Positions 14,131 to 60,424 are shown, counted from the stretch's first letter. The stretch: DNA of 64,000 nucleotides from Elusimicrobiota bacterium (GCA_028868375.1 JAGWUP010000008.1:4751-68750), one strand, 5' to 3'. A program made the numbers and translations. The notes: generated by a model from the sequence alone, not told the origin.

Positions 14131-14349
14131 GGCGCTGCCACGCAATAACATGAACATTCTGGAGGCCCGAGCTTGAGACGATTTCAAGGCGCGAAGAGAG
14201 GGCATGGCGGTAGTCATGCGGGCGATGAGCAACGCGGAAATCGGCCAACCTCGGGCTTCCCCACAGAGCCGGGCCGTTTTTGGGCTGCGCCTTCGTCGCC
14301 CCGCTCCAAAATCGCGCACGGCAGAGCGACCATCTTATTGCGTGGCAGC
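14131..14349. repeat. ~219-bp element bounded by a perfect 18-bp inverted repeat (GGCGCTGCCACGCAATAA ... TTATTGCGTGGCAGCGCC); MITE-like or structured-RNA element
   Basis: Arms at 14131-14148 and 14332-14349 are exact reverse complements. The interior is lower in GC. The right arm ends 5 nt before the transposase-like ATG. A related element is at 58934-59153. Confidence 0.5.
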
Positions 14350-14354
14350 GCCTA

Positions 14355-15265: not shown

Positions 15266-15293
15266 CTAGGACCTAAAATAGCGTAGGTCCTTT
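15266..15293 (+). promoter_or_regulatory. AGGACCTA-N8-TAGGTCCT inverted repeat including TAGGTCCTTTA, ~65 nt upstream of the 4939-aa gene
   Basis: Read directly: ctaggacctaaaatagcgtaggtcctttaatatc. The same TAGGTC(C)TTT decamer occurs at 122 and 3371. AGGAGGAG lies further downstream. Confidence 0.35.
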
Positions 15294-31499: not shown

Positions 31500-31550
31500 T
31501 CCGGGCATGCGCTCGCTCTCCGGTCTTCGGCCGAGCGTCCATGTTATTAC

Positions 31551-32117
31551 TTGACAGCGCCTTACGTCCTCACCTTCTTTCTGATCAACGCGTCGATCTG
31601 GACGGCCATGCTGCTGCCGGGCAGCGCGGGCTCGCCGCAGGCCTTCCTCCAGAACGCCGTCGCGCCGATCCTCTGCATCGCGCCGATCCTCTGGGTCCAA
31701 TACCGCCTGCTCGCCCGGATATTCCCCAACGTGCTTTTGGAGATTCTGGTCCAGTACGCCTCCTTCGCGCTGTTCATGTTTCTCAGCGGCTTTCTGATGT
31801 CGATAGGCCAGCAGGTCGGCTCCAGTTCCGCCCGCAATCCCCTGGGCTGGCTCGACGGCGGCCTGCGCGTCGCCCTGCTGGGGCAGTTTATCGGGATCGT
31901 GCCCTTAGAATTCAGGGATACGCGCCGCCGAGAGGGGCGGACGGGCGCTCGGCGCAACCCCGAGAAACGCCTTCTGTTGGTCCGCCGGAGCCAGCAGGCC
32001 CAAGATCGTCGAGCCGTCCTCCTGGCGCTCCGGCTTGACCGGCGGGCGATAGGCGGTCCTGACGTCGGCGTCGGCCGTGGTGACGACGTAGCCCCAGGTG
32101 GCGGGGTTTCCGCTTAG
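31551..32117 (+). CDS. possible small membrane protein in a low-GC island; the last ~70 codons overlap the convergent gene and look non-coding
   Basis: The first ~125 aa are hydrophobic with non-local codon usage (TFFLINASIWTAMLL...). The R-rich tail overlaps 31905-32117 of the minus-strand gene. Confidence 0.25.
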   Translation: MTAPYVLTFFLINASIWTAMLLPGSAGSPQAFLQNAVAPILCIAPILWVQYRLLARIFPNVLLEILVQYASFALFMFLSGFLMSIGQQVGSSSARNPLGWLDGGLRVALLGQFIGIVPLEFRDTRRREGRTGARRNPEKRLLLVRRSQQAQDRRAVLLALRLDRRAIGGPDVGVGRGDDVAPGGGVSA

Positions 32118-44766: not shown

Positions 44767-44838
44767 GAGCCCGTAGCTCAGGGGTAGAGCACGCGCCTTT
44801 TAAGCGTGGGGTCGTGGGTTCGAATCCCACCGGGCTCA
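44767..44838 (+). tRNA. tRNA-Lys (anticodon UUU)
   Basis: Acceptor GAGCCCG/CGGGCTC. Anticodon stem CGCGC/GCGTG with loop CTTTTAA. T-arm GTGGG-TTCGAAT-CCCAC. No encoded CCA. TATAAT at 44751-44756. Confidence 0.85.
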
Positions 44839-44854: not shown

Positions 44855-44926
44855 GCCTCCATCGTCTATCGGCTAGGACGCGGCCCTTTCAAGGCTGAAA
44901 GAGGGGTTCGACTCCCCTTGGAGGCA
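44855..44926 (+). tRNA. tRNA-Glu (anticodon UUC)
   Basis: Acceptor GCCTCCA/TGGAGGC. Anticodon stem CGGCC/GGCTG with loop CTTTCAA. T-arm AGGGG-TTCGACT-CCCCT. Confidence 0.8.
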
Positions 44927-48000: not shown

Positions 48001-50927
48001 CGCACGGCAACGTCTCGTCGTTTTCCGGGCCCATCGGCGGCAGCGGCGGCCTGACGATCTACAGCGACAATGGCGGGGGCATAGCGGACGGGGCGATTTT
48101 TCTGTCCGGGGCCAACACCTACACGGGCGGCACGACGGTCGATAACGGCGTGCTCAACGTCAACTCGGATTCCAACCTGGGCGACGCCTCCGGGGGCGTG
48201 ACGCTCAACAACGGCTCCGGGCTCTTCCTCCAGCAGGCGATGAGCTCGGCGCGCTCGATCACGCTGGGCGCCGGCGGCGGCGTGGTGAACACGAAGGGGC
48301 ACAGTTCTTCGTTGACCGGCGTGATTGGCGGAACCGGCGGGCTGAGCGTCACCGACGACGTCGGCGGCGGCTCTTTGGCTCTGTCGGGAAACAACACGTT
48401 CACGGGCGGAGTGACGATCGACGGGGGGGCCCTGTCGGTGGCGAGCGACGCCAACCTGGGCGACGCCTCTGGCGGCGTGACGATCAATAAGGATGCGGTC
48501 TTCGAGACGGGCGCCAACATGTCCACCGCGCGGGCGTTCACGCTCAGCGGCGGCGGCAAGATCGACACGCACGGGCACGTGTCGACCCTCTCGGGCGCCA
48601 TCGGCGGCTCGGGCGGCCTGACCATGTTCAACGACTTGGGCGGGTCCTGGATCGGGGGCGGCGCGTTTTTCCTGTCGGGCAACAACACGTACACCGGCGG
48701 GACGACGATCAACAACGGAATTTTGAACATCAACTCCGACGATAACTTGGGCGACGCCTCGGGGCATGTCGCGATCAGCAATCTTTCCGGGTTGTGGCTG
48801 AATAATGCCATGACGATCAACCGTGGGATCACCCTCAACGGCGCCGGCGGCACCATCAACTCGGCCGGTCACGACTCGACGCTGGCCGGCGTCATCGACG
48901 GCGCCGGGAAGTTGCAGGTCATGGACGACGTGGGCGGGGGGAAATTGACGTTGAGCGGCGCCAACACTTATAGCGGGGGCACCTTCATCCAGGACGGCGC
49001 CCTGCTGTCGATCTCGGCCGACGACAATTTGGGCGACGCCTCCGGCGGGATCACCTTCAACGGCGGCACTTTGCAGACTTCCGCGGGGATCTCCTCCTCG
49101 CGCGGCGTCACCATGAACGTCGACGGGATCATCGACACCAACGGCTACGATTCCACCCTGTCCGGAGTCGTGAGCGGAAGCGCCGGCCTGGATAAGATCG
49201 GCGCGGGCACGCTGAAGCTGAACGCCGTCAACACCTACGGCGGAGCGACGACGGTCAACGCGGGCACGCTGGCGCTGGGCGTCGCCGGCGCCTTGCCGGC
49301 CAACGCGCTGACGGTGGCCTCCGGCGCCGCGTTGGACATGGCGGGGCACGATCAAAGCGTGGGCGCGACGGTCAACAACGGCACGATCAACGCCGGAGCG
49401 GGGCAATTGACGATCCACGGGGATCATTCCGGGACCGGCAATTTGAACGTCACGCTTCAAAGCGGCGTCACGAACGTCGTCGTCACCGGCAACGCCACGT
49501 TGACCGGCGAGACGCTCAACCCCAGCGTGTCCGCGGTTCCAGCGGTGGGCGACGTCTTCACGGTGGTCTCGGCCGGGGCCCTGAGCGGGCAGTTTACCGC
49601 CATCAACGACCCGACGGGGGTGTATCTGGTGCCCACCTACAGCGGCACCCAGCTCGTGCTGAAGGCGGCCATCCCCTCCTTCCAGCAGGCCGAGCAGGAC
49701 TCCACCTCGGGTTCCGTGGGAACCGCCCTCGACACCATGCGCGCCAACGGCGGCTTCTCCTCGCCGGACGGAACAGTCGTCCTCAACAGCCTCAATTTCC
49801 TGACATCCTCCCAGTTCCAGAAGGCGCTCAACGACATCACGCCCAACCACGCGGGGCAGGCCATGGGCGCGGCCGGGCCGACCTTCTCCGGCCTGGCGGT
49901 GGGCTTGGGCGGCGGGGGCGGCGCCTTGGCGATGCGCGCCAACGACTTGCTGCACGGCCCCTCCGGCGCGCAGGAGCCGCTGGTGGCGCACTACAGCGTC
50001 AGCGGCGTGTCCTACCCCGGAACCCTGATCGCCTACGCCAGCGACGACTTGGGCGCCCTGGGCTTGGACGCGCCCTCGGATCAGGACGGCTCGGCCTCGC
50101 GGTTGGGCTTCTTCACCTCGGCCTTGGGCTCCGAGGGACGCTTGAACGACAGCGACGGCGGGCCGGGCTACGGCTACACGGCGGGGGGATTCTCCAGCGG
50201 CGCCGACTACCGCTTCAACGACAACTTCACCGGCGGAGCGATGCTGAGCTACGTCTACGGCCGCTCGATCATCAGCCAGGGAGGCGGCGAGGTCAACAGC
50301 CAGAGCGTGCGCCTCGGCGTCTATTCCGTCAGCCGCGAAAACGAATGGTACTCGACTTTTTATCTGGGCGGCGCCAAGGATTTCTTCAGCGTCACGCGCA
50401 ACATCAACTTCCCCGGGATCGCCCGCACCGCCACCAGCTCGCCCGGTGGCCTTGAGGTCAACGCGGACTCGCAGTTCGGCTACGACGTTTCCGCGGGACG
50501 CTATACGGTCTCCCCGTTCGTGGGCCTGGCCTTCGACGAGGTGCGCGTCGGCCATTATACGGAGAGCGGCGCGGGAGCGCTGGACTTAAGCGTAGGCCAG
50601 CAGAAGGCGGACTCGCTTCGCACGACGGCCGGCATGAAGCTGTCGCCGCGCTCGAAAGCCGGCGCTCGATGGCGGCCGTACCTGAGCCTGGCCTGGCAGC
50701 GCGAGTTGCGAAACCCGGTCCGCTCGATCGACGCCCAGCTCGACAGCGGGGCGGGCAGCGCCTTCGCCTCCCAGACCGCTCCGGCCAGCGCGAACGCGGC
50801 TTTGCTGGGCCTGGGGCTGACGGCGATGCTCCGCAGCGACCTGACGGGCAAGCTCGCCTACACCGGGGATTTCCGCTCGAACTTCATCGACCACACGCTC
50901 GACGCCGAGCTGCGCTTCAGGTTCTAA
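45015..50927 (+). CDS. autotransporter (type Va) adhesin-like protein (1970 aa) with Gly-rich N-terminal region and about 20 autotransporter-associated beta-strand (PATR) repeats
   Basis: Signal peptide MAKTRSILFCALALLAWQAPAQA. Repeated LSGANTYTGGTTI(N/D)xGxL...NLGD units. C-terminal beta-barrel ending ...LDAELRFRF. AGGAGA Shine-Dalgarno 9 nt upstream. Confidence 0.85.
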   Translation: MAKTRSILFCALALLAWQAPAQAATLLVTNNSDCSTNGCGSLRAAISQAAAGDTIQFNLPANLVTISLTSDLPAISQNVTIDGSNGGAQVTVDGQSAHQIFTVMAGNVTIENISVAHGKAQGANGASGGNAGYGGGGGGAGMGGGLFVNNNANVTLTNVSFANNGAVGGNGGAFNGGPAGAGGGGAGSVSSIAQQGGNGSSGNGDASAGGGANGGSAGADNAAGSGQNGGNFTGTAAQGGGGGGGGAATGGGSGAVGGGGGNGGDFSGGGGGGSTNSTGHGGDGGSGGYGAGGGGGGAVFGGSGGVAGGQGGVGGVGGGGGGGGSALGLPGSGGNGGFGGGNGAVGGGGGGGAGLGGAVFVRQGGSLTIHDGSKIDNTNSVTAGLGNGGGTQNGQAVGGGIFLDRNVQAEFNPAAGQSVTVGGSIGGGNGDSGILMNGPGTLDLSLGGANTYSGGTTIDQGVVRIGADNNLGDAAGGLTFNGGTLQTFTGNGSITTNRTMMINAGGATIDTHGGTFTMAGQVSGVGGLTLNDSAAGSGKLTLSNTLNNYSGGTTIDNGILSVADDRELGTGGVTLNGNSATLLTTSGLTTARTITLNGGGNLDSGGNTSTFSGVISGNGGLDIASSQGGGMVVLSNVGNNYTGDTTINTGSLSISDDRELGGLAGSVRIGNKFNELQFTSGVNSARSIVLGVGTAPGGGTLDYTGGQTSLSGVISGSGGLFITHSSGSNGQIYLSGPNTYTGDTTVTSAVLAVDRDANLGDVSGNIFLNNKGVLVANSDNFSSARAITLGNGGFGSGGGGLDEDGHTATFSGDIIGIGGLAIKNSGAADVGSVVLSGHNAFTGGLTIGGGATLSAANDYNLGSTAAGNDLTIKGGTLDTTTGIDTSRNLTLNGGGTVEIEGDGAITYLRGTVGGSGGLTIANTTGGTAGVVLTNSNNYTGDTTINSGFLGVTSDQSLGDVSGAVAINNHATLATVGVVNSARSITLGGAGGGQIDTHGNVSSFSGPIGGSGGLTIYSDNGGGIADGAIFLSGANTYTGGTTVDNGVLNVNSDSNLGDASGGVTLNNGSGLFLQQAMSSARSITLGAGGGVVNTKGHSSSLTGVIGGTGGLSVTDDVGGGSLALSGNNTFTGGVTIDGGALSVASDANLGDASGGVTINKDAVFETGANMSTARAFTLSGGGKIDTHGHVSTLSGAIGGSGGLTMFNDLGGSWIGGGAFFLSGNNTYTGGTTINNGILNINSDDNLGDASGHVAISNLSGLWLNNAMTINRGITLNGAGGTINSAGHDSTLAGVIDGAGKLQVMDDVGGGKLTLSGANTYSGGTFIQDGALLSISADDNLGDASGGITFNGGTLQTSAGISSSRGVTMNVDGIIDTNGYDSTLSGVVSGSAGLDKIGAGTLKLNAVNTYGGATTVNAGTLALGVAGALPANALTVASGAALDMAGHDQSVGATVNNGTINAGAGQLTIHGDHSGTGNLNVTLQSGVTNVVVTGNATLTGETLNPSVSAVPAVGDVFTVVSAGALSGQFTAINDPTGVYLVPTYSGTQLVLKAAIPSFQQAEQDSTSGSVGTALDTMRANGGFSSPDGTVVLNSLNFLTSSQFQKALNDITPNHAGQAMGAAGPTFSGLAVGLGGGGGALAMRANDLLHGPSGAQEPLVAHYSVSGVSYPGTLIAYASDDLGALGLDAPSDQDGSASRLGFFTSALGSEGRLNDSDGGPGYGYTAGGFSSGADYRFNDNFTGGAMLSYVYGRSIISQGGGEVNSQSVRLGVYSVSRENEWYSTFYLGGAKDFFSVTRNINFPGIARTATSSPGGLEVNADSQFGYDVSAGRYTVSPFVGLAFDEVRVGHYTESGAGALDLSVGQQKADSLRTTAGMKLSPRSKAGARWRPYLSLAWQRELRNPVRSIDAQLDSGAGSAFASQTAPASANAALLGLGLTAMLRSDLTGKLAYTGDFRSNFIDHTLDAELRFRF

Positions 50928-50968
50928 GCCCGCGTCAGCGGGCTTAGGCGATTTGATATCATCGCGCC

Positions 50969-52219
50969 GTGCGCCGAGTGCCCGCCGACGGGATCAACCT
51001 GTTCCAGTCGATCTACGGCCTCTTGCGCGGCTACTCTGAGAAGACGGGCCTGCCGCCCTTGAACCTCTCCCTGGGCAATCCGGACGGCGTGCCGCCGGAG
51101 CCGATCCGCGCGCTGAAGGCGAAGTTCGCCGCCGACCCCAGGCTGGACTACCACGCCTACGCCGAGGACCGCGACCTGCACGGGTTTGCCGAGGCGATGG
51201 TGGAGCTGCACGGCGGCATACGGGTCCGGGAGCACGGCGGCTTGCGCGCCCTTCCCATTCCCGGCATCAAGACAGCCTCGGCGCTGATCCCCCTGGCTTG
51301 CGGCCTGCACCTGCCCGGCGCGCGGCGCCGCGAGCGCTTCGTCTTGGCCGTCAACGCGCCGGCCTACGACGTCGCCGGCGTCTGGGCCGCTCAGTATCTG
51401 GCCGGGCGGCGCTTGGTTTGGCCGCTGGAGAGCGCCAGCGACATGAGGCTCAAGGCGGGACGCCTGGAGCGGGCCCTGCGCGAGGAGGGCCTGGAGCGCG
51501 CGGACCTGGTGTTCGTCATCCGCCCCGGCAACCCGGCCTCCGTGGGCGCCGGCGCCGCGGAGTGGCGCGCCCTCATCGCGCATTGCCTTCGGCGCGGGAC
51601 CCGGCTGGTCAACGACGCGGCCTACGCCGGCCTGGCCGGCCCGGGGCATGTGCCGCTGGCCGCCGTGGCCAAGGACTTCCCCGGGCTGGAGTGGCTGGAG
51701 CTCTACTCTGTCTCCAAGTCCTTCAGCGATCCCGGCGCGCGCCTGGGGGCCCTCGTCGGCTCGGCGGATTTCGTCGCCGATTTCGCGACGATCAAGGGCA
51801 ACGCCGAGTCCGGGCCGGTGCCGAGCGTGATGGCGGCCTACGGGCAATTCCTGGGAGAGCGCGCCGCGGCGCGCTCCGTCCTCGAGGGCCTGCGCTCCCT
51901 CTATCGCGCTCGCCTGGACTACCTCATCCCCCGGCTTAAGGCCGCCGGCTTGCGCCCGGCCTGCCCCACGGAGGCCGGCTTCTTCACCCTGTGGCGCGTT
52001 CCGCGCCGGGTCCTGGGCGTCGACTTGGCGAAGGACCTGCGCTGCGCCGGACTGCCAGCGGCGGAGGCCTTCAACCGCTTGGTCGCCGCCGAGACCGGCA
52101 TCGTCGGAGTCCATTTCCCAGGCTTGATCCGCTACGCGGTCTGCGCCGATGTCCTGTCCGCGGACTTCCAAGGTCGTTTCGAGAAGGGGTTGCGAAAACT
52201 TCGTCCGGAATACGACTGA
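50969..52219 (+). CDS. class I/II PLP-dependent aminotransferase
   Basis: LYSVSKSFSDPGARLG (PLP-Lys region) and GNPDGVPPEP. GTG start. Confidence 0.7.
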   Translation: MRRVPADGINLFQSIYGLLRGYSEKTGLPPLNLSLGNPDGVPPEPIRALKAKFAADPRLDYHAYAEDRDLHGFAEAMVELHGGIRVREHGGLRALPIPGIKTASALIPLACGLHLPGARRRERFVLAVNAPAYDVAGVWAAQYLAGRRLVWPLESASDMRLKAGRLERALREEGLERADLVFVIRPGNPASVGAGAAEWRALIAHCLRRGTRLVNDAAYAGLAGPGHVPLAAVAKDFPGLEWLELYSVSKSFSDPGARLGALVGSADFVADFATIKGNAESGPVPSVMAAYGQFLGERAAARSVLEGLRSLYRARLDYLIPRLKAAGLRPACPTEAGFFTLWRVPRRVLGVDLAKDLRCAGLPAAEAFNRLVAAETGIVGVHFPGLIRYAVCADVLSADFQGRFEKGLRKLRPEYD

Positions 52220-52239
52220 CAAAATGCTAACCTAGCCTC

Positions 52240-52653
52240 ATGCCAGGAATTTATCGCAAGAAGCGGCGTCAAAAGGGACCAAGCAAGAACGAGGAAAAGG
52301 TCGAGCGGGCCAGGCAGGCGGAGGCCATCGCCCGCCCCGCCAACAGCCTGGCCTCGCGCTTTCCGACGCTGCGGGCCTTGACCGTGACGCTGTCCTTCAC
52401 CGGCGCCCAGGGCCAGACCTTGGGCGAGGAGACGCGCCGCTACGGGCCGCAGGACCCCTGCGATTTCTCCGTGCCCTGCCCCGGACTCTGCGGGGTTGGC
52501 TCCTTTGACCTGGCCGCCAAGATCGAGCAGATCGCGGCGGCTGGCGAGACCGATTCCGAGAGCAACGGGGTCTGCCAGGAAATCCTGCAGACCGGAGGCT
52601 CCTGCGCCTGCGCCTTGAAATGCCGGGTCCAGGCCAGCTACCTGGAGAAATGA
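52240..52653 (+). CDS. Cys-rich small hypothetical protein (8 Cys), translationally coupled to SCO
   Basis: CDFSVPCPGLCGVGSF ... GVCQEILQTGGSCACALKC. The stop overlaps the downstream ATG (ATGA). Confidence 0.4.
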   Translation: MPGIYRKKRRQKGPSKNEEKVERARQAEAIARPANSLASRFPTLRALTVTLSFTGAQGQTLGEETRRYGPQDPCDFSVPCPGLCGVGSFDLAAKIEQIAAAGETDSESNGVCQEILQTGGSCACALKCRVQASYLEK

Positions 52654-53186
52654 GCCGCCTGCTGGCGGCCTGCCTCATCGCCGTCTCATTCTGCGGATGC
52701 CGCCGCCCGCGCCCCGTCTACGGCGCCCTGCCGGATTTCACGCTGACCGCCGTCTCCGCCGGAAGACCGGCCGCGCCCCTGCGCCGGCAGGACCTGCTCG
52801 GCCGCGTCTGGATCGCCGATTTCATCTATACCACCTGCTCCGGCCCCTGCCCCGCCCTCTCCGCCGAGATGGAGCGCCTGCAAAAGGAACTGCCGGACCG
52901 CGTCGGCTTGCTGAGCTTCACGGTCGACCCGGAGCACGACGACGCGGCGGTCCTGGCGGCCTACGCCAAGCGCTTCGGCGCCCGGCCCGCGCGCTGGCTC
53001 TTCGTCACCGGCCCCAAGGACGCCCTCTCCCGCCTGCTCCTCAAGGGCTTCCTGGTCTCCGGAGGCATGACCCACAGCACCCGCCTGGTGCTGCTCGACA
53101 GCCGAGCCCGCCTGCGCGGCTACTTCGACGGCCTGGACCCCGCCTCGCGGGCCGCGCTGCGCAAGGCCGCAGAAAGCCTGGATTAG
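52650..53186 (+). CDS. SCO1/SenC family copper chaperone / thiol-disulfide protein, lipoprotein-like
   Basis: CxxxC motif TCSGPCP in a thioredoxin-like context. N-terminal LIAVSFCGC lipobox-like sequence. Confidence 0.75.
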   Translation: MSRLLAACLIAVSFCGCRRPRPVYGALPDFTLTAVSAGRPAAPLRRQDLLGRVWIADFIYTTCSGPCPALSAEMERLQKELPDRVGLLSFTVDPEHDDAAVLAAYAKRFGARPARWLFVTGPKDALSRLLLKGFLVSGGMTHSTRLVLLDSRARLRGYFDGLDPASRAALRKAAESLD

Positions 53187-53290
53187 GCCGGTTAGGACCA
53201 TCGTCCCGGCCCGGTAGGCCGAAAGGCCTCTCCGCCCTGCCCCAAAGCCCCAGGTTTTAAGGGGGCTTCCCCCGTACAATACCCGTATCA

Positions 53291-55090
53291 ATGATCGAGG
53301 CACCATCGGGGAAATGCGCGTTGCTGGCGCTGCTCTTGGCGCTGCCGCTGCCGTCCGGCGCCGGGCCCCTCGAGGGCGGGCCGGCGCGCGACTTGGCGGC
53401 GGCGGGGCCTAAGGAAGGGCTTGCGCGCTGCGCGGCCTTGACCCCCGAGGCTCTCAACTCCCTTTTGGGCGTTCGCGGCAATCCCTATCAGGCCAATGCG
53501 CTGAGCGGCCTCTCCCTGCTGCTTGGCGAGAGCTCGCCGGCGGAGCCTGGGCGGGAGCGGGCCGAGCGATTGTTGGCGCAGGCCGTCTACGTGAAGATGC
53601 TCTCGCTGTCGGCGAATGCCCTGTCCGCGCGGGCGACGCTGCCCGGGATCGAGGGCAATCTCCGGAATCTCCGGTCCCTGGGGAGGATCTTCGGCGTTCC
53701 AAACGGCCTTCAAGGGATCGAGGGGCCGATGCGGCGCCGCGCCGACATGATGCGGTCGGCCCGAGCCTGGAACCGCGCCCGCTTGATGGCCGCGGCCCTG
53801 TCCGCGCAAACCGATGCCACCTCCGAGGCGGCGATGGCGCAGAGGCTGCGCGACCTGGCCGTCCACGGCGGCGATGAGGCCTTCCAAAACCACGTCGTCT
53901 CGGCTTTGGGCGCCCGCCTGGCCCGGCATTATTCGCATCGGGGCCGGATGGTGGAGCTCTACCTTTCCCATCTGCGCGATATCGAGCGGCGCAGCGCCCG
54001 GCCCGGCGTCAAGGCGGCCGTGGCGCGCGTCCTGTTGGCGGCTAACCCGCGCGACAGGCGAGGCCTAGCCATCGTCCGGCACGCGGGCGCCAGCGCGGCA
54101 GAGCCGGCGCAGGCGGGGGCGGTCCTTCGGCTCATCGAGGCGGCTTGGGATCGGGGGCATGGCGGCCATCTGCTCTACCAGGCCGGCCTGGCCGTCGAAT
54201 CGGCGCGGCTGGCGGGGATCGCCAAGCGCGGGGGCTCTGAACCGGATCCCCAAGCCGCAAGGCTGCGGCGGCGCCACGCGCTGGGCTACTGGTCGTTGGG
54301 CTTTTTCGCTTCCGGGTCGGCTGTCTTGGCGACGACAGTCGCCACGGCGTTGGCCCGCCGGCCGTTGCCCGAGTTCCGCGCGGCCGCAGCGGCGGTTCTC
54401 ATAGTTTTAGCCTTCAAAGCGTTCACGCGCCGGCGCGCCCTTTCCACGCCCGCCTATCCCTGGAAGGAGGAGGCGTACGCGGCGAGGGCGTCCCTGCAAA
54501 CCGCGGGCAACGGAGCGAGGCTTGAGGGTTTGGAGCGCGCGCTGTTGGCCTCGGCGTCGTCGCTCGATGCGGAAGCGGCAAGGCAGCGGTTGGATGAAGC
54601 GCTCGAGGCCATCAAGACCGCCGGGGAAACCGCTCCCGATCTCGAGAGCAAGGCCGCCATCCTCGGCTTGATCGAGAAGGCTTGGGATCGGCGCCCGGCC
54701 GATGACCATGACTATTCCCGCCGATTGAGCTCGGCCGCCCGCGCCATCGAGAGCTCGCGTCTGGCCCTGCTTGAGCAGCTTGGACTTCCCCTCCCGCAGC
54801 CGCAGCCGGACAGGAGGGCGCGCTGGTTGGCGTATGCGGGGCGGATCAAGCTTTATGCGAAGTTGTCCGCGCTCATGCTCGTTTCGGCGGGGCTTGCACT
54901 CTTCATGCGAACGCTGGCGCCGCCGTCCGTGGGCGTAGCGCTTGCCGCTCTGAGCTTGCTTTCAGGCGCCGCCTTCGCCTATCAGGCGTCGAGATATCTC
55001 AAGCGCCTCAGGGGGCTTCGCTACCCATGGCGGCAGGAGGCGCGCGCATCCTTCGTCCCCGGGGCAGGCGAGCCTATCTCAAGTCCCTGA
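53291..55090 (+). CDS. hypothetical secreted/membrane protein with an internal two-fold duplication (each unit: LIExAWDR..., TM hairpin, YPW(K/R)(E/Q)EA)
   Basis: Signal peptide MIEAPSGKCALLALLLALPLP. Repeat units around aa 270-400 and 460-590. Confidence 0.5.
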   Translation: MIEAPSGKCALLALLLALPLPSGAGPLEGGPARDLAAAGPKEGLARCAALTPEALNSLLGVRGNPYQANALSGLSLLLGESSPAEPGRERAERLLAQAVYVKMLSLSANALSARATLPGIEGNLRNLRSLGRIFGVPNGLQGIEGPMRRRADMMRSARAWNRARLMAAALSAQTDATSEAAMAQRLRDLAVHGGDEAFQNHVVSALGARLARHYSHRGRMVELYLSHLRDIERRSARPGVKAAVARVLLAANPRDRRGLAIVRHAGASAAEPAQAGAVLRLIEAAWDRGHGGHLLYQAGLAVESARLAGIAKRGGSEPDPQAARLRRRHALGYWSLGFFASGSAVLATTVATALARRPLPEFRAAAAAVLIVLAFKAFTRRRALSTPAYPWKEEAYAARASLQTAGNGARLEGLERALLASASSLDAEAARQRLDEALEAIKTAGETAPDLESKAAILGLIEKAWDRRPADDHDYSRRLSSAARAIESSRLALLEQLGLPLPQPQPDRRARWLAYAGRIKLYAKLSALMLVSAGLALFMRTLAPPSVGVALAALSLLSGAAFAYQASRYLKRLRGLRYPWRQEARASFVPGAGEPISSP

Positions 55091-56582
55091 CGGCCTTGCG
55101 CCAGGCGCGATAGAGGGGGGTCGGGCGGCCGGAGTCGGGCAGCATTTGCTCTAGGGCCTGCGACCAGAAGACGCCGCCCAGGCAGCGCTCGAGGCCGCAA
55201 GAGGCGGGGGTGAGCCAAGCCAGCAGGTCCGCGCGGGCCGGCGCGCTCTCGGCGTCGCCCCACCAGTAACCCGGCGCGGGGCCGTCGGAGTAGCCCAGGC
55301 TTCCCAGCATCAAGGGCTTGCCGGGCAGCGCGCGCGCCAGGATGGCGAAGGCGCGCTCGAGCGACATGCCGACCGGGCTGTCGCGGGGCCAGAGGCTCAG
55401 GGCGACGACGTCGACGTTCTTGCCGAAGCCCAGGGGGACGTAGTTGGCCAGCCAGCCTTGCAGGGAATGCTCGGCGTCGGGGGAGGCGCCCTCCCACCAG
55501 TACAGCGTGTCGACGACCTCGATTTTGGGATCGAGCTCCTTGACTTGCGCCGAGGCGGCCGAGACGATGTCGTAGACGCGCCGCGCCGGCAGGGCTTGGC
55601 CCCGGCCGCCCAGCCAGTCCCCGTTGAGCTCGCTGCCGAGCTCCCAGCTCCCAATCCGTCCTTTATAATGCCGCACGAGATCGAGCGCCCTCCGGGAGTA
55701 GAGCTCGGGGGTGAGGCCCGCAGGCCATTGGGTGGAATCCAGCACGCAGCCCATCACGCGCAGCCCGGAGTCGTCGAGGGCGCGGACGATTGCGTCGTAC
55801 TCGTTGAAGGAGGCTTGGCGCTCGTAGGCGAAGTCTCCGGGATTAAGGCGAAAGACCAGGCGCGCCCAGTTGGCCCCGGAGCGGCGGACTTCCTTGACGA
55901 TCCAGCGGTACTGCCGGATGCGGTCGACCATGGAGCCGTCCAGGGTCAGGCCCAGGCGCAGCGCGCCGCCGGCTTTCGAGCGGGCGCGCTGCCGGCCGCA
56001 GTCGACCTGCAGCGCGCGCCAAGCTTGGGAGGTGGCGGACAGCGACCGGCCGAAGAGGCGGGCGCGCTCCGGCGGATTTTCGCCCGCGTCGGCCCTGGCG
56101 ACGGCGTCGCGCGCGGCTTGGGCCAGGCGCAGCGCTTGGCGGCCGGGCTTGCAGCCGGAGGCCTCGTGGCGAAGCCGCGCCTCCTTGAAGAGCCGGTACT
56201 GCGTCAGGGCCAGTTCCTCGTTGAGGCGGATCGTCTCGCCGTCCGCGATGCCCCGCCCGCCGCGATCGACCAGGAGCGTCGAGAAGCCCTCCGCCGGCAG
56301 GGGCCAGGGCAGGCTGAGGATGAGGCGGGGCGGCCCGTCCCAGGACAGCGCGATGCCCTGCTTGTCCTGCGACAGCTTGGGCCTGGACAGTATCGTCCCG
56401 TCCGGGGCCAGGCCCCAGAGGGCCGGGATTGCGCCGTCGCCGCGGCCGATGAAGGCGGCCAGGGCGGAGGCGTCCAGCGGCCGGCCGTCGTTGTCGAAGG
56501 CCAAGAGATGGGCCGAGCATGGGCGGGCGGCGGCGGGAGCCGGCGCGGCCAGGGCCGCGCAGAGCCAGAGGGCCAGGCTCAC
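55074..56582 (-). CDS. secreted TIM-barrel glycoside-hydrolase-like protein (clan GH-A-like), GTG start
   Basis: Signal peptide VSLALWLCAALAAPAPAAA. SWELGSELNGDW resembles the GH5/GH26 acid/base strand. The real start is GTG 56582, overlapping the upstream stop (GTGA); the 713-aa track ORF is a merge. Confidence 0.5.
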   Translation of the reverse strand: MSLALWLCAALAAPAPAAARPCSAHLLAFDNDGRPLDASALAAFIGRGDGAIPALWGLAPDGTILSRPKLSQDKQGIALSWDGPPRLILSLPWPLPAEGFSTLLVDRGGRGIADGETIRLNEELALTQYRLFKEARLRHEASGCKPGRQALRLAQAARDAVARADAGENPPERARLFGRSLSATSQAWRALQVDCGRQRARSKAGGALRLGLTLDGSMVDRIRQYRWIVKEVRRSGANWARLVFRLNPGDFAYERQASFNEYDAIVRALDDSGLRVMGCVLDSTQWPAGLTPELYSRRALDLVRHYKGRIGSWELGSELNGDWLGGRGQALPARRVYDIVSAASAQVKELDPKIEVVDTLYWWEGASPDAEHSLQGWLANYVPLGFGKNVDVVALSLWPRDSPVGMSLERAFAILARALPGKPLMLGSLGYSDGPAPGYWWGDAESAPARADLLAWLTPASCGLERCLGGVFWSQALEQMLPDSGRPTPLYRAWRKAVRDLR

Positions 56583-57223
56583 CGGTAGCGGCGGCGCCGC
56601 CAGGCTTGCTTGAGCTCGAAGGCGTGCTCGCCGCCGTAGAAGAGGGCGTAGTTGACCAGGCCGCTGACGACGGCCAGGCGGTCGACGTAGCCTCCGAAGA
56701 GCAGTATCCAGGCGATGCAGGCCCAGACCACCGCGCCGATCCAGCGGATCTTGACCGGGATGACGAAGAAGAGCAGGATGCGCACCTCGGGGCTCTCGCG
56801 CGCGAAGGCCAAAAACAGGCTCGTCACGAACATCCCGCTGCCCAGCGCCACGCCCACCGCGGTCGAGGCCGCGGCGATCGTCAAGGCGCCCAGCAGCACG
56901 TACAGCGTCAGGCGGAAGGAGCCCCACGATCGCTCCAGGCCGCTCAGGTAGGAGAAGTACAGCAACAGCCAGAAGAACAGCAGCAGGGCGGACAAGTCGG
57001 GGGGGACCAGGACGAAGGTCAGCATGCGCCAGATTTGCCCGCGCAGGACCAGGGAGGGCTCGAGCAGCAGTTGCGCGGGGAACTCCGGCTTGACGTAGGT
57101 CAGCACCGCGCAGAGCACGTTCATGCCCGCCAGGAAGGCGGCGAGGTCCGGGATTTCCAGGAAACGCAGCGGTCGCTCCAGCCGGTCGACCCAGCGCGCT
57201 GTCATGAAGCCGCATAATAACAT
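56579..57223 (-). CDS. polytopic membrane protein (214 aa), hypothetical
   Basis: Six or more hydrophobic helices. Coupled to the downstream GH-like gene. Confidence 0.5.
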   Translation of the reverse strand: MLLCGFMTARWVDRLERPLRFLEIPDLAAFLAGMNVLCAVLTYVKPEFPAQLLLEPSLVLRGQIWRMLTFVLVPPDLSALLLFFWLLLYFSYLSGLERSWGSFRLTLYVLLGALTIAAASTAVGVALGSGMFVTSLFLAFARESPEVRILLFFVIPVKIRWIGAVVWACIAWILLFGGYVDRLAVVSGLVNYALFYGGEHAFELKQAWRRRRYR

Positions 57224-57241
57224 AAATGGTAAGATGCGCCG

Positions 57242-58144
57242 GTGCCGCGGGAATGGGCCGTCGAGCTCAAGAAAAAGTTGCCGCAGGCGAGGCTCGATGA
57301 ACCCCTGGCGCGCTACACCACCTTCCGCATCGGCGGCCCCGCCGACGCCTACGTGGAGTTGGGCTGCCGCGCCGAGCTGCGCCTTCTGCTGGAGTGCTGC
57401 CGCCGCTACGGCGCGGCGCTGACCGTCCTCGGCTTCGGCTCGAACCTCCTCGTGCGCGACCGCGGGGTGCGCGGGGTCGTGGCGCGGCTGCGCGGGGAGT
57501 TCGAGTCCGTGGAGTTCCTGCCCGATCGGCGCGCGCGCTGCGGGGCCGGGGTGCGGATGCCGCGGCTGGTGACCCTCTGCGCCGAACGCGGGCTGGGCGG
57601 CCTTGAGCCGCTGGTCGGCGTGCCCGGGACGCTCGGCGGCGCGCTCGTGATGAACGCCGGCACGCGCGAGGGGGAGATCGGAGCGCTGGTCGAGGAGGTC
57701 GAGGCCCTCGATCCGGCCCGGGCGTCCGAGCTGCGCCTGGCCGGAAGCGAGCTGAGCTTCGGCTATCGCAGCAGCAACCTCGCCGGCTTGGTCGTGACCG
57801 CCGGGCTGCTTCGATTGAAGGCCGCAGGCAAAGCTGATATAATGGACCGCGTTTCAAGGCTTCAGCAGAGACGCTCCCGGACGCAACCGATACACACTTT
57901 CAACGTGGGCTCAACCTTCAAGAATCCTCCCGGCCAGTTCGCCGCGCGGCTCATCGAGCAGGCCGGGCTCAAGGGTGCCTCCGTGGGCGGCGCGCGTCTC
58001 TCCCCCTTGCACGCCAATTTTATCGAGAACTTCGGCGCGGCCAGCGCGAAGGACGTCCTGGCCCTGGTCGATCGGGTGCGCGCCGCGGTGCTGCGCGACA
58101 GCGGAGTCGCGCTCGAGCTCGAGATGAAGGTCATCGGTGAGTAG
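57242..58144 (+). CDS. murB: UDP-N-acetylenolpyruvoylglucosamine reductase
   Basis: LARYTTFRIGGPADAY, GFGSNLLV, and ELEMKVIGE C-terminus. Confidence 0.85.
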   Translation: MPREWAVELKKKLPQARLDEPLARYTTFRIGGPADAYVELGCRAELRLLLECCRRYGAALTVLGFGSNLLVRDRGVRGVVARLRGEFESVEFLPDRRARCGAGVRMPRLVTLCAERGLGGLEPLVGVPGTLGGALVMNAGTREGEIGALVEEVEALDPARASELRLAGSELSFGYRSSNLAGLVVTAGLLRLKAAGKADIMDRVSRLQQRRSRTQPIHTFNVGSTFKNPPGQFAARLIEQAGLKGASVGGARLSPLHANFIENFGAASAKDVLALVDRVRAAVLRDSGVALELEMKVIGE

Positions 58145-58943
58145 GCGGGCCCGCGTGCGGGTCAGCCTGCGGCCCAGGCAGCGCCGGCGCCGCAATCATC
58201 TGGCGCTGGCCCTCGCCGCGGCGGCGCTGCTGGGGGTCGCGGCCGCATCCGCCCTGCGCCACGACGCCGGCGGCATCGACGGTTCCTTGGCACGCTTGCA
58301 TCGCGCGCTTACGCCGGCCGCGACACGGCTGGAACTGTCCTGCCCCATCGAGCGCGTCCGCCGTTCCGCAGCCGGGCTCCTCGCCTCGCGGGGCCGGCTG
58401 TCTCCCGCCGCGGCCGCCGCCGCCATCCGGCGGAGCTTCCCGTATCTGCGCGTCGTCGTTCGCCGCCATTGGCTGCGGCGCGCGGCAAGCCTGGAGCTGT
58501 CCCTGCGCGCGGCCGTGGCCGTGACGGCCGCCCCGGGAGCGCGCCGGGACTATCTGTCGGACGACGGAATCGTCTTCGGCGCGCCGGGGGGGCTCTACGC
58601 GCTCGCCGCTCCCTTGGTGGAGACCGCGCGGGCCTCCCCGGCCCAGTTGCGCGAGGCCTCGGCCATCTGCGAGCAGGCGGCCGAGCCGGGCGCCCTTCCC
58701 TCGCCGCTCCAATCCCTGCGCCTGGCCGCCTCTCCGCAGGACGGCTGGGCGGCCCGCTTGGCCGACGGCACCGAGGTTCTTTTCGGGGACGGGCGCTGGC
58801 TGGGCCAGAAGTTTTCCAGGCTCAATCAGGTCCTGGCCGACGCGCGCGCGCGCCCCGCCGTGGCGCCGCCCTTCACGGCGGACTTGCGTTATTTCGGGGA
58901 CGGCAAGATTCTTCTTCGACCTTTAGGACCTGCGTCGCAATAA
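58137..58943 (+). CDS. ftsQ: cell division protein FtsQ/DivIB-like (N-terminal TM + POTRA)
   Basis: Position between murB and ftsA. TM LALALAAAALLGVAAASAL. POTRA-like IRRSFPYLRVVVRRHWLRRAASLELSL. GTG start overlapping murB by 8 nt. Confidence 0.6.
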   Translation: MSRRARVRVSLRPRQRRRRNHLALALAAAALLGVAAASALRHDAGGIDGSLARLHRALTPAATRLELSCPIERVRRSAAGLLASRGRLSPAAAAAAIRRSFPYLRVVVRRHWLRRAASLELSLRAAVAVTAAPGARRDYLSDDGIVFGAPGGLYALAAPLVETARASPAQLREASAICEQAAEPGALPSPLQSLRLAASPQDGWAARLADGTEVLFGDGRWLGQKFSRLNQVLADARARPAVAPPFTADLRYFGDGKILLRPLGPASQ

Positions 58944-59153
58944 TATGATGATTTTGGACGGGCGCTTTTGTAGCGAGACAAGGAGCGACGAGCGATGTGG
59001 GCGCAACCCAAAAGCGTCCGTCCCCTTCGGGGCGACCCGATGCCGGCCGATTTCATCGTTGCTCGTCGGTCACATGGCCTGCGGCCATGCTCCCTCCTCG
59101 CGCCTCGAAATCGCCACGGACTCGGGTCGCCAAAATGATCATATTATTGCGAC
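58934..59153. repeat. ~220-bp element bounded by a 24-bp near-perfect inverted repeat (GTCGCAATAATATGATGATTTTGG / CCAAAATGATCATATTATTGCGAC) in the ftsQ-ftsA intergenic region; contains nested stems and a CCCC-UUCG-GGGG tetraloop hairpin
   Basis: 23/24 complementary arms. The left arm overlaps the ftsQ TAA. It shares the CGCAATAAYATGA...TCATRTTATTGCG termini and its length with the element at 14131-14349. Confidence 0.5.
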
Positions 59154-59176
59154 GCAGCTCCTTAGCGAGGTGATCG

Positions 59177-60424
59177 ATGGCTAGCTCCAAACAGGATGTC
59201 GTCGCGGGTCTGGACATGGGCAGCGGGCGGGTGACCTGCCTTATCGGCGCCGGCGACGAGGCGGGCTGCATGCACGTGCTGGGAGGCTCCAGCGTCTCCT
59301 GCCGCGGCGGCCTCAACGGCGGAGTCGTCGTCAACATCATGGAGACCGCAAACGCCGTGACCCAGGCCGTGGAGGAGGCGGAGGCCCAGGCCAAGCGGGA
59401 GGTGCGCAACGTCTTTCTCGGGGTGCGCGGACACCACCTTCAATCCTTCAACAATCGCGGGGCCTTCAACATCGCCCGCACCGACAAGGAGATCACCGCC
59501 GAGGACGTGGACTCCGTCATCGCCAACGCGAAGGCGGTCCCGCTTTCCTCCGACCGCGAGATCCTGCACGTCCTGCCGCAGAGCTTCTCCTTGGACCGGC
59601 AGCGCGGCATCCCGCACCCCGTGGGCATGGAGGGCTCCCTCTTGGAGGTCGACGTCCATATCGTCACCGCCGCCTCCGGGCACCTCAACAACCTCATCAA
59701 GACCGTCGCCAAGGCGGGCTTCGAGGTCGTCGAGCCGGTCTACAGCCTGCTCGCCTCGGGAGAGATGCTGGTCACCGCGGAGGAAAAGGAGCTGGGCTGC
59801 CTGCTGGTGGATTTGGGAGGGCAGTCGGTGTCGATCGGGGTCTACGCGGAGGGCAGCATCCGCTACTCCAAGGAGCTGCCGATCGGCTCCGATTTCATCA
59901 CCAAGGATCTCGCCATCGGCCTGCGGACCTCCCTGCTGACGGCGGAGAAGATCAAGGTGGAGCACGGCATCGCCCATCCCTCGCTGCTCAACGGCGACGA
60001 TGAAATCGAGTTCCGGGGCCCGGACGGGCGCACGGCGCAATCGGTCAAGACCAGCTATATGATGAACCTCATCCTGCCGCGCGTCGAGGAGATCTTCTCG
60101 GTGATCGAGGAAGAGCTGCAGGCCTCCTCCTACGCCGACGTGGTCGTCCCGGGAGGGCTGATCCTGACCGGCGGCGGCGCGCTGATGCGCGGCACCCTAC
60201 AGGCCGCCGAGCAGATCCTGCGCATGCCGGTGCGCCTGGGCTTGCCGCATCCCGACGCCATCGTCGCCGAGGACCAGTGGCTGACTCCCACCTACGCCAC
60301 CGCGATGGGCCTGCTGGGCTATTCCAGGCATCTGCGCTACGGCCTGACCAACGCGCGCCAGACCGACCGCAAGAAGCCGGTCTGGATGCGGAAGCTCTCC
60401 GCCGTCTTCGAGGACCTATTCTGA
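59177..60424 (+). CDS. ftsA: cell division protein FtsA
   Basis: VVAGLDMGSGRV actin-like phosphate-1 motif. Full-length actin-fold ATPase. AGGTGA Shine-Dalgarno. Confidence 0.9.
   Translation: MASSKQDVVAGLDMGSGRVTCLIGAGDEAGCMHVLGGSSVSCRGGLNGGVVVNIMETANAVTQAVEEAEAQAKREVRNVFLGVRGHHLQSFNNRGAFNIARTDKEITAEDVDSVIANAKAVPLSSDREILHVLPQSFSLDRQRGIPHPVGMEGSLLEVDVHIVTAASGHLNNLIKTVAKAGFEVVEPVYSLLASGEMLVTAEEKELGCLLVDLGGQSVSIGVYAEGSIRYSKELPIGSDFITKDLAIGLRTSLLTAEKIKVEHGIAHPSLLNGDDEIEFRGPDGRTAQSVKTSYMMNLILPRVEEIFSVIEEELQASSYADVVVPGGLILTGGGALMRGTLQAAEQILRMPVRLGLPHPDAIVAEDQWLTPTYATAMGLLGYSRHLRYGLTNARQTDRKKPVWMRKLSAVFEDLF

What the first reader, a model, noticed from the sequence alone, without database searches (positions are those of the whole stretch)
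58934..59176. Highly structured AT-rich leader between ftsQ and ftsA with a UUCG tetraloop hairpin
The 234-nt ftsQ-ftsA spacer is unusually long for a dcw cluster. It folds on paper into an outer 24-bp stem, an inner stem (ACGGGCGCTTTTG / CAAAAGCGTCCGT) and a CCCC-UUCG-GGGG hairpin. It may be an inserted repeat that now acts as an RNA element (terminator, attenuator or processing site) modulating ftsA/ftsZ expression.
Basis: seen in the sequence. Interest (0 to 1): 0.5.

Follow-up and report, generated by a model that had tools for sequence, protein, structure and literature searches.

The report
Small transposon inserted between ftsQ and ftsA
The long, highly folded ftsQ-ftsA spacer in this Elusimicrobia genome is a 236-bp non-coding mobile element (a MITE) that landed in the last codons of ftsQ; it is an ordinary kind of insertion, not a conserved regulatory leader.

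Summary
They belong to a discrete 236-bp element at 58926-59161. It has 32-nt terminal inverted repeats that differ at 2 positions and is flanked by a direct TTA/TTA repeat.

- **Insertion, not leader.** The four closest relatives (FtsA 78-89% identical, same gene order) have only 1-3 nt between ftsQ and ftsA. Removing the element plus one TTA restores the conserved "...R-stop, 1-3 nt, ATG" junction.
- **Effect on the genes.** The element supplies a new ftsQ tail (GPASQ) and stop codon. The ftsA ribosome-binding site stays intact outside it.
- **Repeat family.** A second copy (14131-14352, 73% identical, opposite orientation) and a solo arm (about 31522-31561) lie in the same window. Four of five arms abut TTA or TAA.
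- **Not an assembly artefact.** The same FtsQ tail occurs under three NCBI accessions, and an independent read-set assembly reproduces the left junction exactly.
- **Negative searches.** No Rfam match, no terminator, no parent insertion sequence, and no copies outside this lineage.

Verdict: a MITE, a new member of a known kind. "Inserted repeat" is right. A regulatory RNA role is untested and is disfavoured as the origin of the element.

The parts
58923..58925 (+). Left copy of the 3-bp target-site duplication (TTA). It is also the Leu codon of the ancestral ftsQ tail ...RPL.
   Evidence: Sequence. TTA directly abuts the left arm and is repeated at 59162-59164. TTA plus TAA make up only 0.42% of trinucleotides in the window.
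58926..58957 (+). Left terminal inverted repeat, GGACCTGCGTCGCAATAATATGATGATTTTGG. It encodes the new FtsQ tail GPASQ and the stop codon TAA (58941-58943).
   Evidence: It differs from the right arm at 2 of 32 positions.
58956..59023 (+).
   Evidence: An analogous stem forms in copy E2 despite a 14-nt deletion.
59023..59034 (+). CCCC-TTCG-GGGG mini-hairpin.
   Evidence: It is not conserved in E2, which has CCCCACAGAGCC at the aligned position, so it is probably incidental.
59031..59131 (+). Hairpin B, a long imperfect hairpin of about 32 pairs capped by CATGGCC-TGC-GGCCATG. It is the best conserved part of the family.
   Evidence: E1 and E2 differ by five double-sided compensatory changes in it. 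Covariance model R1 finds only E1 and E2.
59130..59161 (-). Right terminal inverted repeat; its reverse complement is GGAGCTGCGTCGCAATAATATGATCATTTTGG.
59162..59164 (+). Right copy of the TTA target-site duplication.
59165..59176 (+). Ancestral 3' end of ftsQ (gcg agg TGA) overlapping the ftsA Shine-Dalgarno sequence GAGGTGA (59167-59173). It now serves only as the ftsA ribosome-binding site.
   Evidence: Excising 58926-59164 gives ...LLRPLAR*. Relatives end ...LR* or ...MR* with AGG-TGA or AGG-TAA plus 1-3 nt before the ATG.
58137..58943 (+). ftsQ (268 aa). Its last 5 codons and its stop codon come from the element.
   Evidence: Pfam FtsQ_DivIB_C. The exact protein is held under 3 NCBI accessions.
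59177..60424 (+). ftsA (415 aa), intact.
   Evidence: 100% identical to an NCBI Elusimicrobia MAG FtsA.
14131..14352 (-). E2, the second full copy of the family (222 bp). It lies in the opposite orientation to E1, between a K+ channel gene and a Y1_Tnp/DnaA_C gene. TAA is present on the right side only.
   Evidence: 73% identity over 180 nt. Fold z -5.7. It is absent from the syntenic relative L009, which has an 88-nt spacer, and from L008.
31522..31561 (+). E3, a solo-arm remnant of the family, followed by TTA (31562-31564).

Best explanation
The spacer is a 236-bp non-autonomous transposable element (a MITE) from a small repeat family of this Elusimicrobia lineage.

**How it arrived (inferred).** A transposase supplied in trans recognised the conserved about 22-nt termini (GGnnCTGCnnCGCAATAAnATG). 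It integrated the element at a TTA in the last codons of ftsQ and duplicated that 3-bp target. A 3-bp TWA duplication is the style of the IS5 family (IS1031 group) and of PIF/Harbinger elements. That assignment is a lead only; no parent element was found.

**What it changed (shown).**
- It replaced the FtsQ end ...LAR-stop with ...LGPASQ-stop, using a TAA inside its own arm.
- It pushed the ancestral stop codon and ribosome-binding site 239 nt downstream, where that sequence still serves ftsA.
- It turned a 1-3-nt, probably translationally coupled, junction into a 233-nt structured gap.

**Origin of the folding (inferred).** The extreme folding comes from the element's architecture: inverted termini plus two internal hairpins that the family maintains. 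It is not an adaptation of the dcw operon.

**Likely consequence (inferred, untested).** The element is transcribed within the dcw mRNA. Its roughly 32-bp near-perfect double-stranded stem is a plausible RNase III substrate. The insertion is tolerated because both genes stay intact.
For: 1. **Empty site in relatives.** Four relatives with FtsA 89, 85, 82 and 78% identical and the same DER1-like / murB / ftsQ / ftsA / ftsZ / pilT order have 1-3 nt between ftsQ and ftsA.
2. **Inverted termini.** The arms are 33 nt and 94% complementary. They are the strongest inverted repeat with AT-rich arms in the window.
3. **Target-site duplication.** TTA/TTA flanks the arms exactly. Excision restores ...LLRPLAR* and the AGG-TGA-nnn-ATG junction shared with relatives. 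Four of five family arms abut TTA or TAA, which together are 0.42% of trinucleotides.
4. **Repeat family.** E2 (14131-14352) is 73% identical over 180 nt and oppositely oriented. E3 is a solo arm. E2 is also missing from syntenic relatives.
5. **Non-coding.** Translations of the element have no relatives among 5.8 billion proteins or 1.8 billion representatives.
6. **Not an artefact.** The FtsQ with the element-derived tail is held under three NCBI accessions. A Logan contig from an independent read set matches window 48155-59036 at 100%, across the left junction.
7. **Consistent with more copies.** The fetched Logan contig stops inside E1 at 59036. Contigs from three separate runs all start inside E2 at 14169.
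8. **Matches the published definition.** Under 500 bp, terminal inverted repeats, direct repeats in young copies, stable stem-loops (PMC10969869). A 3-nt target is typical of the IS1031 group of IS5 (PMC2516522).
Against: - No autonomous element with matching termini was found in the window or in any collection.
- Only 2.5 copies are documented, all within one 64-kb window. The rest of the genome could not be read.
- The exact empty-site allele (...RPLAR*) is not in the protein collection. Relatives carry 5-7 extra tail codons, so the duplication is inferred from the flanking repeat and not seen as an empty site.
- E2 lacks the repeat on its left side (TCC).
- The internal hairpin is kept by compensatory changes. 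A plain 'ends-only' MITE model does not predict that.
Confidence: 0.8

Rival explanations
1. REPIN-like element mobilised by the Y1 (HUH) transposase-like protein with a DnaA_C domain encoded at 14355-15257. In this reading the family's hairpins are single-strand DNA recognition structures. The TTA would be a target or cleavage motif, not a duplication.
For: - E2 ends 2 nt before the start codon of a Y1_Tnp + Bac_DnaA_C gene. JGI names homologues of this gene 'REP element-mobilizing transposase RayT'.
- The whole element folds strongly as single-stranded DNA as well (z -7.0).
- The inner hairpin is maintained by compensatory changes.
- No DDE-type parent element was found.
Against: - The homologous Y1 genes of relatives lack any such element upstream. 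L009 keeps the same K+ channel neighbour; L008 has different neighbours. E2 therefore looks like a secondary insertion next to a resident gene.
- No copy lies on the other side of the gene.
- E1 has symmetrical termini reaching the very ends plus a flanking 3-bp direct repeat. IS200/IS605 elements and REPINs do not produce these (established knowledge of those families).
- TTA/TAA sites are rare and concentrate at gene boundaries in a 69% GC genome. Adjacency to a start codon is therefore expected by chance.
Confidence: 0.08
2. A dedicated cis-regulatory RNA leader (attenuator, terminator or processing site) selected to tune ftsA/ftsZ expression.
For: - The fold is very stable on the sense strand.
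- It lies inside an otherwise tightly coupled operon.
- MITEs elsewhere are known to be cleaved by RNase III or to alter mRNA decay (PMC10969869; PMC2649163 abstract).
- The insertion occurs under three NCBI accessions, and the fetched independent read-set assembly reproduces its left junction.
Against: - It is absent from all four nearest relatives.
- There is no terminator-like site and no Rfam family.
- The - strand folds even better than the sense strand.
- The homologous copy E2 is in the opposite orientation next to unrelated genes.
- The UUCG hairpin is not conserved.
Confidence: 0.08
3. Assembly artefact: a chimeric or fold-back join in a metagenome-assembled genome.
For: The window comes from a MAG. 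Palindromic artefact contigs do exist in public data, for example L005.
Against: - An identical FtsQ with the element-derived tail is held under three NCBI accessions.
- An independent Logan assembly is 100% identical across the left junction.
- Both flanks are colinear with relatives.
- Homologous copies exist elsewhere in the window.
Confidence: 0.02

Closest known systems
Chunjie MITE of Geobacter uraniireducens Rf4 (Chen et al. 2008, as described in PMC3184786 and PMC10969869)
   Same: It is about 178-235 bp and non-coding, with terminal inverted repeats and flanking direct repeats. Its predicted RNA structure is very stable (about -98 to -130 kcal/mol; here -122 to -127). [quoted passage not shown] Full, shortened and partial copies coexist.
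   Different: Chunjie has 21-bp inverted repeats and 9-bp direct repeats. This element has 32-nt inverted repeats and a 3-bp TTA repeat. No sequence similarity was tested or expected. Chunjie has dozens of documented copies; here only 2.5 are visible.
Correia repeat-enclosed elements of Neisseria
   Same: Both are small MITEs with inverted-repeat ends that are co-transcribed with neighbouring genes. The Correia terminal-repeat hairpin is bound or cleaved by RNase III, and the element can carry promoters or IHF sites (PMC2649163 abstract; PMC10969869). This is the model for the inferred effect on the dcw mRNA.
   Different: From my own knowledge, Correia elements are about 100-155 bp with a TA duplication. 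RNase III cleavage, promoters and IHF binding are not shown here. Only one weak promoter-like match spans the left junction, and one 8-of-9 IHF-like match lies in the left arm.
IS5-family elements of the IS1031 group, and PIF/Harbinger-derived 'Tourist' MITEs
   Same: They share a 3-bp target duplication at T-N/W-A sites. PMC2516522 supports a three-nucleotide target for the IS1031 group. TTA/TAA for PIF/Harbinger comes from my own knowledge. Their termini also start with G-G or G-A.
   Different: No transposase gene or full-length element with these termini was found, so membership is only a lead.
REP/REPIN sequences with RAYT transposases
   Same: Both are highly palindromic repeats, and one copy here sits next to a RAYT-like Y1 gene.
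   Different: This element is about 230 bp with three helices, true terminal inverted repeats and a flanking duplication. The Y1 genes of relatives lack such neighbours.

Membership tests
Prokaryotic MITE | Short length (under about 500 bp) and no coding capacity | tested here: met
   The element is 236 bp (E2 is 222 bp). Translations have no relatives, and no gene for it is in the protein collection.
Prokaryotic MITE | Terminal inverted repeats reaching the element ends | tested here: met
   The arms are 32 nt and differ at 2 positions in E1, and 31 nt at 84% in E2.
Prokaryotic MITE | Flanking direct repeat (target-site duplication) | tested here: met
   TTA/TTA flanks E1. TAA is present on one side of E2 and TTA beside E3. 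Excision restores the conserved ftsQ end.
Prokaryotic MITE | Presence/absence polymorphism: empty site in related genomes | tested here: met
   Four relatives lack E1. Two relatives lack E2. The exact empty allele of the same species was not found.
Prokaryotic MITE | Multiple dispersed copies in the genome | tested here: inconclusive
   Two full copies plus one remnant lie within 64 kb. The rest of the genome was unavailable. Breaks of read-set contigs inside both copies hint at more.
Prokaryotic MITE | A cognate autonomous insertion sequence sharing the termini | tested here: not met
   None was found in the window. Pattern scans of genome, metagenome and viral collections gave only chance hits. 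Many accepted type II MITEs also lack a known parent.
IS5 family (IS1031 group) / PIF-Harbinger derivative | 3-bp duplication at TNA/TWA | tested here: met
   Four of five arms abut TTA or TAA. Literature: PMC2516522.
IS5 family (IS1031 group) / PIF-Harbinger derivative | Termini homologous to those of a member insertion sequence, mobilised by its DDE transposase | not testable with these tools
   No ISfinder-type library was available, and no transposase gene is linked to the element.
REP/REPIN-RAYT system | Repeats flank the RAYT gene, and the association is conserved | tested here: not met
   The repeat lies on one side only. It is absent next to the homologous Y1 genes in L008 and L009.
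REP/REPIN-RAYT system | No target-site duplication, and short (about 20-40 nt) palindromic units | tested here: not met
   E1 has a TTA duplication, and the unit is about 230 bp with three helices.
Curated cis-regulatory RNA (Rfam) | Match to a covariance model, and conservation at the locus | tested here: not met
   There were no matches above noise. The spacer is absent in relatives.
Intrinsic terminator / attenuator | GC-rich stem followed by a U tract | tested here: not met
   Zero terminator-like sites were found on either strand of 58600-59500.

The most novel reading that the evidence does not exclude
The family is not a cut-and-paste MITE. It would instead be a structured, hairpin-based mobile element serviced by the conserved Elusimicrobia Y1(HUH)-DnaA_C protein that copy E2 abuts. 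That would make it a large REPIN-like system with a three-helix fold kept by compensatory changes. It would be the first cargo or substrate assigned to this widespread Y1-DnaA_C gene family.
Probability: 0.07. Interest if true: 0.6.

Novelty: new member of a known kind. Interest (0 to 1): 0.25.

Why it matters
- **Annotation.** The odd spacer should be labelled as a mobile-element insertion with a chimeric ftsQ 3' end, not as a regulatory leader.
- **Natural experiment.** A transposon can land between two essential, normally translationally coupled division genes and persist. It did so by donating a stop codon and sparing the downstream ribosome-binding site.
- **Taxonomic record.** It documents a MITE family in Elusimicrobia. 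A full-text search for MITEs in this phylum returned a single paper that mentions each term only once.
- **If RNase III does cut the stem.** That would be a lineage-specific rewiring of ftsQ versus ftsA/ftsZ mRNA stability. This is speculative.

Tried and rejected
- **Rfam.** Scans of the locus, the E2 locus and the whole window found nothing except two tRNAs.
- **Terminator and promoter scan.** No terminators; one weak promoter-like match across the left junction.
- **Single-arm pattern in genome contigs.** One chance hit in an AT-rich Spirochaetota spacer: a single arm with no partner.
- **Single-arm pattern in metagenome contigs.** Nothing.
- **Two-arm degenerate pattern in metagenome contigs.** Three chance or artefact hits: a palindromic contig and a coding gene.
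- **Viral contigs.** Two scans gave nothing or chance hits.
- **Plasmid BLAST.** One irrelevant weak hit.
- **nhmmer and covariance model.** About 50 kb of non-redundant DNA from relatives contained no copies.
- **Searching spurious ORF translations of the element.** This was a way to find copies in metagenomes. The word-indexed search gave none, and the exhaustive search gave two unrelated repeat proteins.
- **Exact look-up of the reconstructed empty-site FtsQ.** Not in the collection.
- **Attempts to read beyond the window.** Look-ups with FtsA and PilT failed. The PilT query has a GTG start, which may have been translated as Val.
- **The UUCG tetraloop as a meaningful feature.** Rejected because it is not conserved in E2.
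- **A TA (IS630-type) duplication.** Rejected because it would make the two arms unequal in length, whereas TWA fits all four flanked arms.

Full report
**1. What is there**

ftsQ (58137-58943) and ftsA (59177-60424) are separated by 233 nt. The repeat finder reports three inverted repeats:
- a 33-nt repeat, 94% complementary, with arms at 58925-58957 and 59130-59162;
- an inner repeat with arms at 58956-58970 and 59009-59023;
- a third with arms at 59031-59045 and 59117-59131.

The sense strand folds at -121.8 kcal/mol (z -6.2). The antisense strand folds at -127.3 kcal/mol (z -8.0). None of 200 shuffles does as well. The core without the outer arms still gives z -3.3. As single-stranded DNA the element gives z -7.0. 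The CCCC-TTCG-GGGG hairpin is at 59023-59034.

- The outer stem is longer than the 24 bp stated.
- It begins inside ftsQ and contains the ftsQ stop codon.
- Only the arms are AT-rich (44% GC). The core is 66% GC, against 69% for the window.

**2. It is an insertion**

The window's FtsA is 100% identical to a protein of an Elusimicrobia MAG. The four nearest relatives whose DNA or gene table could be read have FtsA 89, 85, 82 and 78% identical. The two whose fetched DNA extends upstream (L002, L003) also show the same DER1-like / murB / ftsQ / ftsA / ftsZ / pilT order; the other two records are cut within ftsQ. In all four, ftsQ and ftsA are 1-3 nt apart.

The other junctions in this cluster are also tight. 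murB/ftsQ overlap by 8 nt. ftsA/ftsZ and ftsZ/pilT overlap by 1 nt.

The arms are flanked by TTA (58923-58925) and TTA (59162-59164). Deleting 58926-59164 gives an ftsQ ending ...LLRPLAR-TGA, followed by 3 nt and the ftsA ATG. Relatives end ...LR or ...MR, then TGA or TAA, then 1-3 nt and ATG. In the window the stop overlaps the ribosome-binding sequence GAGGTGA.

The insertion had three effects:
- It swapped the last two residues (AR) for GPASQ.
- It donated a TAA stop from its own arm.
- It left the ftsA ribosome-binding site untouched 5 nt beyond its right end.

One caveat applies. Relatives carry 5-7 more tail codons, and the exact empty allele is not in the protein collection. The duplication is therefore inferred from the flanking repeat. 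TTA is 0.24% of window trinucleotides, so two such codons at both element ends by chance is unlikely.

**3. It belongs to a repeat family**

A degenerate search with the terminal 18 nt found a second element at 14131-14352, named E2. E2 is 222 bp, lies in the opposite orientation and is 73% identical to E1 over 180 nt. It folds similarly, with z -5.7.

A solo arm, E3, lies at about 31522-31561. The five arms share GGnnCTGCnnCGCAATAAnATG. Four of them abut TTA or TAA. That pattern fits a 3-bp TWA target duplication. It does not fit a TA duplication, which would make the arms unequal.

E2 is also lineage-specific. The syntenic relative L009 has 88 nt between the K+ channel gene and the Y1 gene, against 364 nt here. 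L008 also lacks the element. E2's arms are more diverged (84%) and it has lost one flanking repeat. This fits an older copy, since direct repeats decay with age (PMC10969869).

Neither nhmmer nor a covariance model of the central hairpin finds further copies. Both searched the window and about 50 kb of non-redundant DNA from relatives.

**4. Structure conservation**

Across E1 and E2, all 71 consensus pairs form in both copies. Nine pairs changed on both sides. Four of these are in the terminal arms and five in the long central hairpin. Slid-register controls give 0-2 such pairs.

With two sequences, and a structure derived from them, this is suggestive only. It does show that the family keeps its arms and its central hairpin. 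The UUCG mini-hairpin is not kept. Possible causes are:
- symmetric protein-binding sites;
- hairpin-templated repair;
- a single-strand DNA or RNA intermediate.

**5. Real, fixed, and probably multicopy**

The FtsQ protein with the element-encoded tail is held under three NCBI accessions. It is also present, with a shorter start call, on three Logan contigs, of which one was fetched. That contig is 100% identical to window 48155-59036 and stops inside E1.

Contigs from three runs all start at 14169, inside E2. Such consistent breaks suggest graph branching at repeats, meaning more copies or variants. A coverage effect of the hairpins cannot be excluded.

**6. What it is not**

- It matches no Rfam family.
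- No terminator-like site lies on either strand.
- Its translations have no protein relatives.
- The collection scans found no copies elsewhere. No autonomous element with these termini was found in genome, metagenome, viral or plasmid collections; all hits were chance or artefact.

**7. The Y1 gene next to E2**

E2 ends 2 nt before the ATG of a 300-aa protein with Y1_Tnp and Bac_DnaA_C domains. The gene is widespread in Elusimicrobia at 50-63% identity. At least one relative keeps the same upstream neighbour.

This raises a REPIN/RAYT-like alternative. Three observations argue against it:
- The genes of relatives have no such element upstream.
- There is no copy downstream of the gene.
- E1 has true terminal repeats plus a duplication.

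In a 69% GC genome, TTA/TAA targets concentrate at gene ends and starts, which explains the adjacency. I give this alternative 7-8%.

**8. Mechanism and consequences**

The following points are shown:
- the element is a discrete insertion;
- it has inverted termini;
- it carries a flanking 3-bp repeat;
- it belongs to a family;
- it created a chimeric ftsQ end;
- it preserved the ftsA ribosome-binding site.

The following points are inferred:
- mobilisation in trans by a DDE transposase of the IS5 (IS1031-group) or Harbinger style, because of the TWA duplication (PMC2516522; otherwise my own knowledge);
- transcription within the dcw mRNA;
- loss of ftsQ-ftsA translational coupling;
- possible RNase III cleavage of the roughly 32-bp stem, by analogy with Correia elements (PMC10969869; PMC2649163 abstract).

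The closest analogue in form is the Chunjie MITE. [quoted passage not shown] It differs in having 21-bp terminal repeats and 9-bp direct repeats.

**9. Verdict**

This is a MITE insertion: a new member of a known kind. The regulatory-leader idea is not supported as an origin and is untested as a side effect. Interest is modest. The main value is correct annotation, plus a tidy example of a transposon tolerated between essential, coupled division genes.

Noticed in passing
window 14355-15257 (+): A 300-aa gene with Y1_Tnp (IS200-like) and Bac_DnaA_C domains. Homologues at 50-63% identity occur in many Elusimicrobia MAGs. At least one relative (L009) has the same upstream K+ channel neighbour. 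It looks like a resident ('domesticated') RAYT-like gene of unknown function.
   Followed up: partly
window 14131-14352 and 31522-31561: A second full copy (E2) and a solo-arm remnant (E3) of the same repeat family. E2's left flank (GACGTCC) and E3's outer flank (GGACGTAA on the arm-oriented strand) share GACGT just outside the arm. This may be chance, or a trace of recombination between copies.
   Followed up: partly
window 15266-15290; L008 4217-4226: A hairpin, TAGGACCT-aaaatagcg-TAGGTCCT followed by TTTAATAT, lies just after the Y1 gene stop. Its stem matches the outermost 7 nt of E1 (AGGACCT). TAGGACCTA also follows or overlaps the stop of the homologous gene in relative L008. It may be a terminator; any relation to the element is unexplained.
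   Followed up: no
window 15359-30178 (+): A giant 4939-aa ORF directly downstream of the Y1 gene, with no Pfam hit on record.
   Followed up: no
window 59036 and 14169: The fetched Logan contig ends at 59036, inside E1. Contigs from three SRA runs start at exactly 14169, inside E2. Both break points lie at the base of the central hairpin. This suggests repeat-induced graph branching or hairpin-related coverage loss.
   Followed up: partly
window 45629-46071: A GC-rich (GGC-type) low-complexity inverted repeat. An NCBI contig of a sister assembly ends near 45875 and a Logan contig starts at 45911, so this region also breaks assemblies.
   Followed up: no
window 44767-44838 and 44855-44926 (+): Two adjacent tRNA genes. 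These are the only Rfam gathering-score matches in the window.
   Followed up: no
L005 (JAAUXZ010022450.1) 150-500: A public metagenome contig that is a near-perfect long palindrome, probably a fold-back assembly artefact. It is unrelated to the finding.
   Followed up: no
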